Source: Squalus acanthias
Taxonomy: Eukaryota
NCBI GenBank assembly: GCA_030390025.1
Contig: CM059425.1
Location: 70,494,001 to 70,558,000, forward strand
Direction: 5' to 3'
Length of the DNA stretch: 64,000 bases
In this document: positions 25,721-26,821 of the stretch, one piece after another
Position numbering within the stretch: the stretch's first letter is position 1
Layout: every line of letters starts with the position of its first letter
Notes under the pieces: model-generated
Seen by the model: the letters and a program-made list of their open reading frames with translations, nothing else
Database searches by the model: none
Told to the model about the DNA's origin: nothing
Made by a program: the position numbers and the translations under genes

Positions 25721-26821
25721 CTTACGTTATCTAGAATTTACTGAGCTTTATCGTACAGCAGTGAGATTAACTCTTAACCTGCCAATTAAAATCAGAACTC
25801 CCTCTGGCTATCAGAGCACATAAGACTAGTGCTTTAGCCTTCCTATTCTGTTTCACACTAGAGTACCGTTCCTGATCCCAGCAGAGAAGCATGTTTGGAA
25901 AGCTGTATACAAGTCCCATAAATAAATAACAATTTATAAATTGAAGGAAAGCAGCGGGTGCAAATCAACATCAAATCAAAGCAGTGTGAGTGACAACCAA
26001 AACTTCGATAAAGCTTTTCCCAAACCAATGCAGAAGGACACAACTCCATGGTCAATACAACATGCCCTTTGATTAAATATTGTGAATAAGCCAAATTTAA
26101 AAAATAGATCAAATTGATTTATTTTTTAGCATTTTTACAATAGGGATTAACTTGAAATAAAATATATAATTTCACACCAGTTCTAATTTTCAGTAAAATG
26201 TAGGTAAACAAGAAACTATGGACTATATTTTCCTCCATTGACCAACTTTGGCAAAAAAATAAGCAGACATGAGAGTATAGTAGGGAACACTGCTTCATAC
26301 TCATGCTTACTTTTCTTGTTAGAATTATTGAATGGAACAAAATATATTCCTTGATGTTTCATCCAACCAGCTGGTAAACAGCGAGTGCATTTAGGTGAAC
26401 TTTAGCAGTAATCTTTTCAAGCAATCCGCAGCTATCATTAATGGTGATAAACAGCAGCATTGGTGAAATAAGTAAGCGCATTCACCAAGGAGTTGTGAGC
26501 AGTAAGGAAAGCATCAAGTGGCTGCGAAAGATGACCAGTGAGTCAGCAGCAGTACCCACTCAGCAAGCTACTTGTGGTGCAAGGATATTTGCCCAATTAC
26601 CATTATTAACAGAAATAAAAGCAGCTTCAGGAAAGTGAGGGTGGGGAATTCCAGTTGGCACCAATTAGTGAGGTTGCTCCCTGCACTGGAATTCTGGGAC
26701 GAAAGCTCTCCCAGAATGCCTGGCTGCCAGGTTTATTTACCAGGTGAAGGAACTCCTGAAGAATAACTTGATGTGGATTTGTGCCTGCGGGGCTTGAATA
26801 CAGTTACTACTTGGGACTTGC

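What the first reader, a model, noticed from the sequence alone, without database searches (positions are those of the whole stretch)
26732..26821. Hidden coding extension of Meis2 exon 10 behind a weak GC donor, ending in overlapping donor, stop and poly(A) signal
Seen: reading through the GC donor stays open for 29 codons (GKSQVVTVFKPRRHKSTSSYSSGVPSPGK*). Exactly 81 nt (27 codons) after the GC site is a canonical phase-1 donor CCTG|GTAAAT, which could splice in frame to exon 11. The next 9 nt also contain the TAA stop (26735-26733) and an AATAAA (26737-26732). From memory, MEIS1 has a same-length alternative tail like GKSPIVTVFKSRKRKPSSSHSPGGPLPGK; this is unverified. Inference: a three-way switch (GC splice; +27-aa basic/Ser-rich insert; truncated form lacking the activation domain) older than the Meis1/Meis2 split, possibly retained in this lineage's Meis2. 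A similar extension may already be described for Meis1.
Basis: partly seen in the sequence, partly recalled or inferred. Interest (0 to 1): 0.8.

Follow-up and report, generated by a model that had tools for sequence, protein, structure and literature searches.

The report
Known Meis exon 10-prime in shark
This stretch of a Meis2 gene (likely a shark's) is the already described exon 10-prime, an ancient 27-amino-acid coding segment between two splice sites that is likely spliced in only in a minority of transcripts, and the stop and poly(A)-like signal beside it are likely by-products of the splice-site sequence, so the finding is ordinary.

Summary
It is Meis exon 10-prime of Irimia et al. 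2011 (PMC3140891): ancestral coding sequence, alternatively spliced since early bilaterians, often behind a GC donor, included at very low level in vertebrates and repeatedly lost. The genome's Meis1 has it with both donors (79% over 48 aa); a third, Meis3-like paralog lacks it. Predicted Meis2 models of 9 shark and ray species already carry it, 7 in frame and 2 frameshifted; cnidarian Meis proteins carry it too. The truncation and poly(A) branch is not supported: Meis1 keeps the stop but not AATAAA; the downstream 60 nt are the most T-poor of 59 AATAAA sites; 0 of 184 exon-9-joined models end at that stop. No RNA evidence for this species was obtained. Left-over leads: possible nucleotide-level constraint on the 5-prime half (weak, post hoc) and teleost Meis1 read-through models. 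Already known; low interest.

The parts
53976..54052 (-). Meis2 exon 9 (homeodomain middle), phase-2 donor
   Evidence: tblastn 100% over 26 aa to shark and ray Meis2a models; boundaries read
26822..26880 (-). Meis2 exon 10, constitutive, 59 nt (end of the recognition helix)
26820..26821 (-). proximal GC splice donor, phase 1; using it skips exon 10-prime
   Evidence: also GC in the own Meis1; 8 of 11 matches to the donor consensus; skip models in relatives
26741..26821 (-). exon 10-prime: 81 nt, 27 aa, basic cluster followed by a Ser-rich run
   Evidence: described in PMC3140891
26739..26740 (-). distal GT splice donor, phase 1; using it includes exon 10-prime
   Evidence: the same 11-nt site in the own Meis1, 8 of 11 matches to consensus; joined to exon 11 in predicted models of relatives
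26733..26735 (-). in-frame TAA two codons into the intron; likely a by-product of the donor sequence
   Evidence: stop at this place in 9 of 29 distinct read-through sequences
26732..26737 (-). AATAAA overlapping the distal donor; likely not a working poly(A) signal
   Evidence: absent from the own Meis1; T fraction of the next 60 nt 0.18, lowest of 59 sites
24521..24631 (-). Meis2 exon 11 with two acceptors 21 nt apart (24631 and 24610)
   Evidence: known event
21548..21835 (-). Meis2 exon 12b coding part (approximate bounds)
   Evidence: tblastn 97-98% over 96 aa

Best explanation
The 81 nt are Meis exon 10-prime, an ancestral 27-codon coding segment between a GC donor and a GT donor; the GC donor likely wins in most transcripts and skips it, while use of the GT donor would add a basic, Ser-rich, predicted-disordered linker right after the homeodomain, and the stop and AATAAA behind the GT donor are likely by-products of the donor sequence. 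Shown here: both donors, the open frame, in-frame joins to both exon 11 acceptors, the same layout in the own Meis1, its absence from the third paralog, and the peptide in Meis proteins from cnidarians to mammals. Taken from Irimia et al. 2011: the segment is part of one terminal exon in non-bilaterians, became optional in bilaterians, and is included at very low level in the vertebrates they tested (no shark among them). Inferred: the same low inclusion in this species; relaxed constraint in Meis2; an effect of the linker on nuclear import, phosphorylation or DNA contact (from its composition only).
For: Own genome: C12 paralog matches all 48 aa at 79% and has the GC donor, 81 nt and GT donor; C28 paralog matches only residues 1-22 and has a GT donor with no segment. 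Protein searches: 32 hits of 37 candidates and 104 of 115. Meis2 models with the segment: 13 proteins from 9 shark and ray species, in frame in 7 species, plus turtles, birds and sturgeon. Meis1 models with it in cartilaginous fish, gar, teleosts, frogs, birds and mammals; also hemichordates, a mollusc, a tardigrade, nematodes, sea anemones, corals and Hydra. Irimia et al. name the segment, report a GC proximal donor in 46% of genes, loss in all Meis3 genes and at least nine losses overall. AlphaFold2 on a shark Meis2 model with the insert: the helix ends at residue 345 and pLDDT is below 50 from 348 on, with no secondary structure (insert = 346-372). Solved Meis structures found stop at or before the end of exon 10.
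Against: No transcript of this species was seen, so use of either donor here is untested. The database models are predictions and their RNA support was not visible; the clusters were picked for carrying the segment, so they give no inclusion rate. The two donors tie on a crude consensus count (8 of 11 each), so dominance of the GC donor is borrowed from other vertebrates. Ten distinct exon-9-joined teleost Meis1 models read through the distal donor, so read-through forms exist at least as annotations. The stop sits at the same place in the own Meis1 and in mammal-like ORFs. The whole C-terminal region has low pLDDT, so cannot single out the insert.
Confidence: 0.9

Rival explanations
1. Three-way switch: besides skip and insert, cleavage and polyadenylation at the AATAAA that overlaps the GT donor would make a Meis2 ending 29 residues after exon 10 and lacking the activation domain.
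For: Canonical hexamer and in-frame stop are present. The stop is shared with the own Meis1 and stands in 9 of 29 distinct read-through sequences. Ten distinct teleost Meis1 models with exon 9 joined read past the distal donor, nine of them ending in intron-derived tails, and one Narcine Meis2a model ends at the donor. Meis genes have repeatedly evolved C-terminal truncations further downstream.
Against: AATAAA is missing in the own Meis1. The next 60 nt have T fraction 0.18 against a mean of 0.32, the lowest of 59 minus-strand AATAAA sites, whereas poly(A) sites need a U- or GU-rich downstream element and U1 bound at a donor suppresses nearby sites (PMC5546720 passages). 0 of 184 exon-9-joined models end at this stop. 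20 of 29 read-through sequences continue past it. A stop after such a donor has about 0.21 chance.
Confidence: 0.07
2. The segment is kept mainly as RNA, not protein: its 5-prime half would act as a splicing element that helps the GC donor, and the insert isoform would be leak-through.
For: Between the own Meis1 and Meis2, 0 of 10 same-residue codons differ synonymously in the first 13 codons of the segment, against 8 of 18 in exon 10 (P = 0.025). Irimia et al. note conservation despite very rare inclusion and leave the mode of function open.
Against: One pair of sequences and a window chosen after looking; P = 0.057 without the codons inside the donor and 0.29 for all 27 codons. No stable fold (z 0.39 and 1.44). 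Length is held at a multiple of three in most relatives and the peptide is constitutive in cnidarians and nematodes, which points to protein-level selection.
Confidence: 0.15
3. In Meis2 the segment is a decaying vestige with no selected function; the functional copy is in Meis1.
For: Frameshifted in the Meis2a models of 2 of 9 shark and ray species (Mobula birostris, Narcine bancroftii). This copy has Pro at position 11, where 98% of 52 distinct segments have Ser (one of the 52, Polyodon, is a false inclusion). Flanking exons are 100% identical to relatives while the segment is not. Loss or stops reported in Meis2 of zebrafish, Xenopus, mammals and chicken.
Against: Intact and in frame in 7 of 9 shark and ray species and in turtles, birds and sturgeon; both donors kept. 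The two frameshifts could be assembly errors (not checked).
Confidence: 0.3

Closest known systems
Meis/hth exon 10-prime (Irimia et al. 2011, Genome Biol Evol 3:551, PMC3140891)
   Same: Position after constitutive exon 10, GC proximal donor, distal donor in frame with exon 11, homology back to non-bilaterians, loss in Meis3.
   Different: The paper sampled no cartilaginous fish (word 'shark' 0 times) and does not discuss polyadenylation (0 times). Its figures and supplements were not seen, so its exact vertebrate sequences were not compared.
Predicted Meis2a isoforms of sharks and rays, e.g. Pristiophorus japonicus X1 (P0001), Chiloscyllium plagiosum X1 XP_043553936.1 (P0002), Hypanus sabinus XP_059811702.1 (P0043)
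   Same: The same 27-aa insert joined to either exon 11 acceptor; P0001 is 45 of 46 identical over exon 10 plus insert.
   Different: Predictions in other species; one to four substitutions; none ends at the stop after the distal donor.
Meis2 exon 11 alternative acceptor (21 nt) and exon 12a/12b choice
   Same: Neighbouring known 3-prime splice choices of the same gene; the two acceptors are present here.
   Different: Those are common events (about 50% and over 90% inclusion); exon 10-prime is rare in the vertebrates tested.
Intronic polyadenylation giving composite terminal exons (reviewed in PMC5546720, passages seen)
   Same: An in-frame stop and AATAAA just past a donor.
   Different: No U/GU-rich downstream element, hexamer inside the U1 site, not kept in the paralog.

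Membership tests
Meis exon 10-prime | Lies directly 3-prime of constitutive exon 10 of a Meis gene | tested here: met
   tblastn of Meis2a models places exons 9, 10, 11 and 12b in the window; Pfam Meis_PKNOX_N and Homeobox_KN in the closest model
Meis exon 10-prime | Alternative upstream donor, often GC | tested here: met
   GC at 26821 and in the own Meis1; GC in 46% of genes in the paper
Meis exon 10-prime | Downstream phase-1 donor that keeps the frame into exon 11 | tested here: met
   all four joins in frame; such joins in predicted models
Meis exon 10-prime | Coding sequence homologous across bilaterian and non-bilaterian Meis | tested here: met
   hits in Nematostella, Actinia, Acropora, Pocillopora, Hydra, hemichordates, nematodes and vertebrates
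Meis exon 10-prime | Absent from Meis3 | tested here: met
   the third own paralog (C28) has a GT donor and no segment; calling it Meis3 is inferred by elimination, not from a tree
Meis exon 10-prime | Low-level inclusion in vertebrate transcripts | not tested
   no reads were laid on the locus; taken from other vertebrates
Intronic poly(A) site with composite terminal exon | A[A/U]UAAA hexamer | tested here: met
   26737-26732
Intronic poly(A) site with composite terminal exon | U- or GU-rich element downstream | tested here: not met
   T fraction 0.18 in the next 60 nt, lowest of 59 sites, mean 0.32; definition
Intronic poly(A) site with composite terminal exon | Conserved with the coding segment it would end | tested here: not met
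   hexamer absent from the own Meis1; only this one paralog was compared at DNA level
Intronic poly(A) site with composite terminal exon | Transcript ends mapped 10-30 nt past the hexamer | not tested
   no 3-prime-end data seen; 0 of 184 exon-9-joined protein models end at this stop

The most novel reading that the evidence does not exclude
Exon 10-prime is kept for a reason other than the rare 27-aa insert: its 5-prime half is an RNA element held at nucleotide level since the Meis1/Meis2 duplication, and failure to splice at either donor yields a regulated, activation-domain-less Meis that ends in the basic tail (at this stop in sharks and mammals, a little further on in teleost Meis1). That would answer the question Irimia et al. 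left open.
Probability: 0.1. Interest if true: 0.55.

Novelty: already known. Interest (0 to 1): 0.15.

Why it matters
As found, little: it adds one more cartilaginous-fish Meis2 to a segment published in 2011 and already present in predicted shark and ray isoforms. The open point is why a segment conserved from corals to mammals is almost never spliced in by vertebrates. Sharks keep it intact in both Meis1 and Meis2, so they are a convenient place to measure inclusion. A regulated truncated Meis lacking the activation region would matter for limb, brain, heart and leukaemia biology, but the evidence here does not favour it.

Tried and rejected
Sequencing-run search: no RNA holder listed. No reads or contigs were laid on the locus, so junction use and 3-prime ends in this species stay open. 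RNA folding of the segment in both paralogs: no stable structure (z 0.39 and 1.44). Open frame length as evidence: rejected, 0.23 by chance. Donor strength by consensus count: 8 of 11 for both, uninformative. Literature searches for a shark Meis2 segment or a polyadenylated form ending here: nothing relevant beyond Irimia et al. in the listings; the library lacks most subscription papers. PMC13379096 (mouse Meis1 long reads): no mention of exon 10, intron 10, retention or polyadenylation in the main text; its figure and data files were not read. Xiong et al. 2009, cited by Irimia for low inclusion in humans, could not be fetched. The supplements of Irimia et al. were not available and hold the RT-PCR and exon-boundary data. 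Earlier scan notes: none by place; one unrelated PAN3 note by words. dN/dS across species was not run: only one paralog pair was in hand as DNA.

Full report
Observation. The minus strand carries a Meis2 gene. tblastn of shark and ray Meis2a models places exon 9 at 54052-53976, exon 10 at 26880-26822, exon 11 at 24631/24610-24521 and exon 12b at about 21835-21548. The closest named protein is from the sawshark Pristiophorus japonicus (97% identity), so the source is likely a shark. Both donors are phase 1 and all four joins to exon 11 keep the frame. An open run of 27 codons is not remarkable alone (0.23 of window positions).

Paralogs in the same genome. A search with exon 10 plus the extension gave 3 matches among 4 candidates: the window, a locus on C12 matching all 48 residues at 79% (E 7.6e-16), and a locus on C28 matching residues 1-22 only. 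The C12 gene is Meis1 (100% identity to Pristiophorus Meis1a over the matched part; its exon 11 lies 33 kb on). It has the GC donor, 81 nt, the same distal donor and the TAA, but not the AATAAA. The segment is 61 of 81 nt identical between the paralogs, the intron beyond it 25 of 111. The C28 gene has a GT donor and no segment; I take it as Meis3 by elimination.

Relatives. Two protein searches gave 32 hits of 37 candidates and 104 of 115; cluster members were listed, 260 proteins in all. Of these, 184 have exon 9 joined and 135 of those carry the segment by a pattern match; the set was chosen for the segment, so this is no inclusion rate. Among Meis2 models of sharks and rays, 13 proteins from 9 species carry it: in frame in 7 species, frameshifted in Mobula birostris and Narcine bancroftii. 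Skip models from the same group are listed beside them. The segment is also in Meis2 models of turtles, birds and sturgeon, in Meis1 models of cartilaginous fish, gar, teleosts, frogs, birds and mammals, and in hemichordates, a mollusc, a tardigrade, nematodes, sea anemones, corals and Hydra. All named vertebrate entries are predicted models; their RNA support was not visible to me.

Literature. Irimia et al. 2011 (PMC3140891; I read parts 1-5 of 8 of the text, and passages; figures and supplements not seen) call this region exon 10-prime. They report alternative use of an upstream donor that is GC in 46% of genes, a single terminal exon in non-bilaterians, constitutive inclusion in nematodes, substantial inclusion in amphioxus and hemichordates, and very low inclusion in vertebrates (27/27 human and 6/6 mouse ESTs skip it; it was seen only with segment-specific primers and many cycles). 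They count at least nine losses, including all Meis3 genes and Meis2 of zebrafish, Xenopus and mammals, call it one of the most ancient alternative splicing events known, and leave its function open. The text has no mention of sharks or polyadenylation. Of PMC13379096 I saw passages and section 7, of PMC5546720 passages; other papers only as search listings. Xiong et al. 2009 was not seen.

How it most likely works. Two donors compete. The GC donor skips 81 nt; by analogy with other vertebrates it is likely the main one. The GT donor adds 27 residues, a hydrophobic start, a basic cluster and a Ser run, between the homeodomain and the activation region. In evolutionary terms the segment is the old coding sequence and the internal donor is what made it optional. 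AlphaFold2 on a shark model with the insert ends the recognition helix at residue 345 and gives pLDDT below 50 and no secondary structure from 348 on (the insert is 346-372); the whole tail is low, so this says only that no fold is predicted. Solved Meis homeodomain structures end at or before exon 10. An effect on nuclear import, phosphorylation or DNA contact is an inference from composition and was not tested.

The truncation branch. A phase-1 donor read in frame gives Gly-Lys and then a codon starting with T, a stop about one time in five (4 of 15 in the window, 0.21 expected). Of 29 distinct read-through sequences, 9 stop there and 20 go on; none of the 9 has exon 9 joined, and 0 of 184 exon-9-joined models end there. 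The AATAAA lies inside the donor, is absent from Meis1, and is followed by the most T-poor 60 nt of 59 such sites on this strand (0.18 against 0.32); poly(A) sites need a U/GU-rich element and U1 at a donor suppresses them. Against my reading: the stop is shared with the own Meis1 and with mammal-like ORFs, ten distinct teleost Meis1 models read past the distal donor (nine end in intron-derived tails), and one Narcine Meis2a model ends at the donor. These could be retained-intron annotations or real forms. No reads were laid here, so the branch is unsupported, not excluded.

Weak lead. In the first 13 codons of the segment the two paralogs show 0 synonymous differences in 10 same-residue codons, against 8 in 18 for exon 10 (P = 0.025; 0.057 without the donor codons; 0.29 for all 27; window chosen after looking). 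No RNA fold stands out. This may point to a splicing element and would need a many-species alignment.

Verdict. A real and well-spotted feature, but already known: published in 2011 and present in predicted shark and ray isoforms. My searches found no paper on the shark copy or on a polyadenylated form ending here. The scan's earlier notes held nothing on it. Interest 0.15.

Noticed in passing
G000:C12:71404100-71437497 (L002 to L006): Intron 10 of the own Meis1 is about 33.4 kb, against 0.4-1.8 kb for vertebrate Meis1 and Meis2 in Table 1 of Irimia et al.; in the window's Meis2 it is 2.2 kb. A long intron could shift donor choice; many shark and ray Meis1 models listed first for their species include the segment, though that set was selected for it.
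   Followed up: partly
window 26783-26821 and L002:1559-1597: No synonymous difference between Meis1 and Meis2 in the first 13 codons of the segment (0 of 10, against 8 of 18 in exon 10). Weak and post hoc.
   Followed up: partly
database proteins P0012, P0034, P0036, P0038: Meis2a models of Mobula birostris and Narcine bancroftii have a frameshifted segment, while Mobula hypostoma is in frame: ongoing loss or assembly error.
   Followed up: no
database proteins P0139, P0187-P0193, P0201, P0225, P0227: Teleost Meis1 models (Nothobranchius, Poecilia, Maylandia, Channa, Epinephelus, Misgurnus, Neolamprologus) read through the distal donor and end in intron-derived tails.
   Followed up: partly
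database proteins P0153, P0156, P0157: A diverged but in-frame 27-aa segment stands in a Canis lupus baileyi Meis2 model and in two unnamed ORFs like it, although Irimia et al. scored it lost in mammalian Meis2.
   Followed up: no
window 26790-26792: Position 11 of the segment is Pro here and in Pristiophorus, Ser in 98% of 52 distinct segments.
   Followed up: no
database proteins P0001, P0038: Shark and ray Meis2a models carry further short inserts upstream of the homeodomain (11 and about 17-18 residues); the exons concerned lie outside this window.
   Followed up: no
L006:1441-1500: The own Meis1 keeps a sequence resembling the 21-nt extension ahead of exon 11, with an AG 21 nt upstream, as Irimia et al. 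describe for Meis1 genes that do not use it.
   Followed up: no
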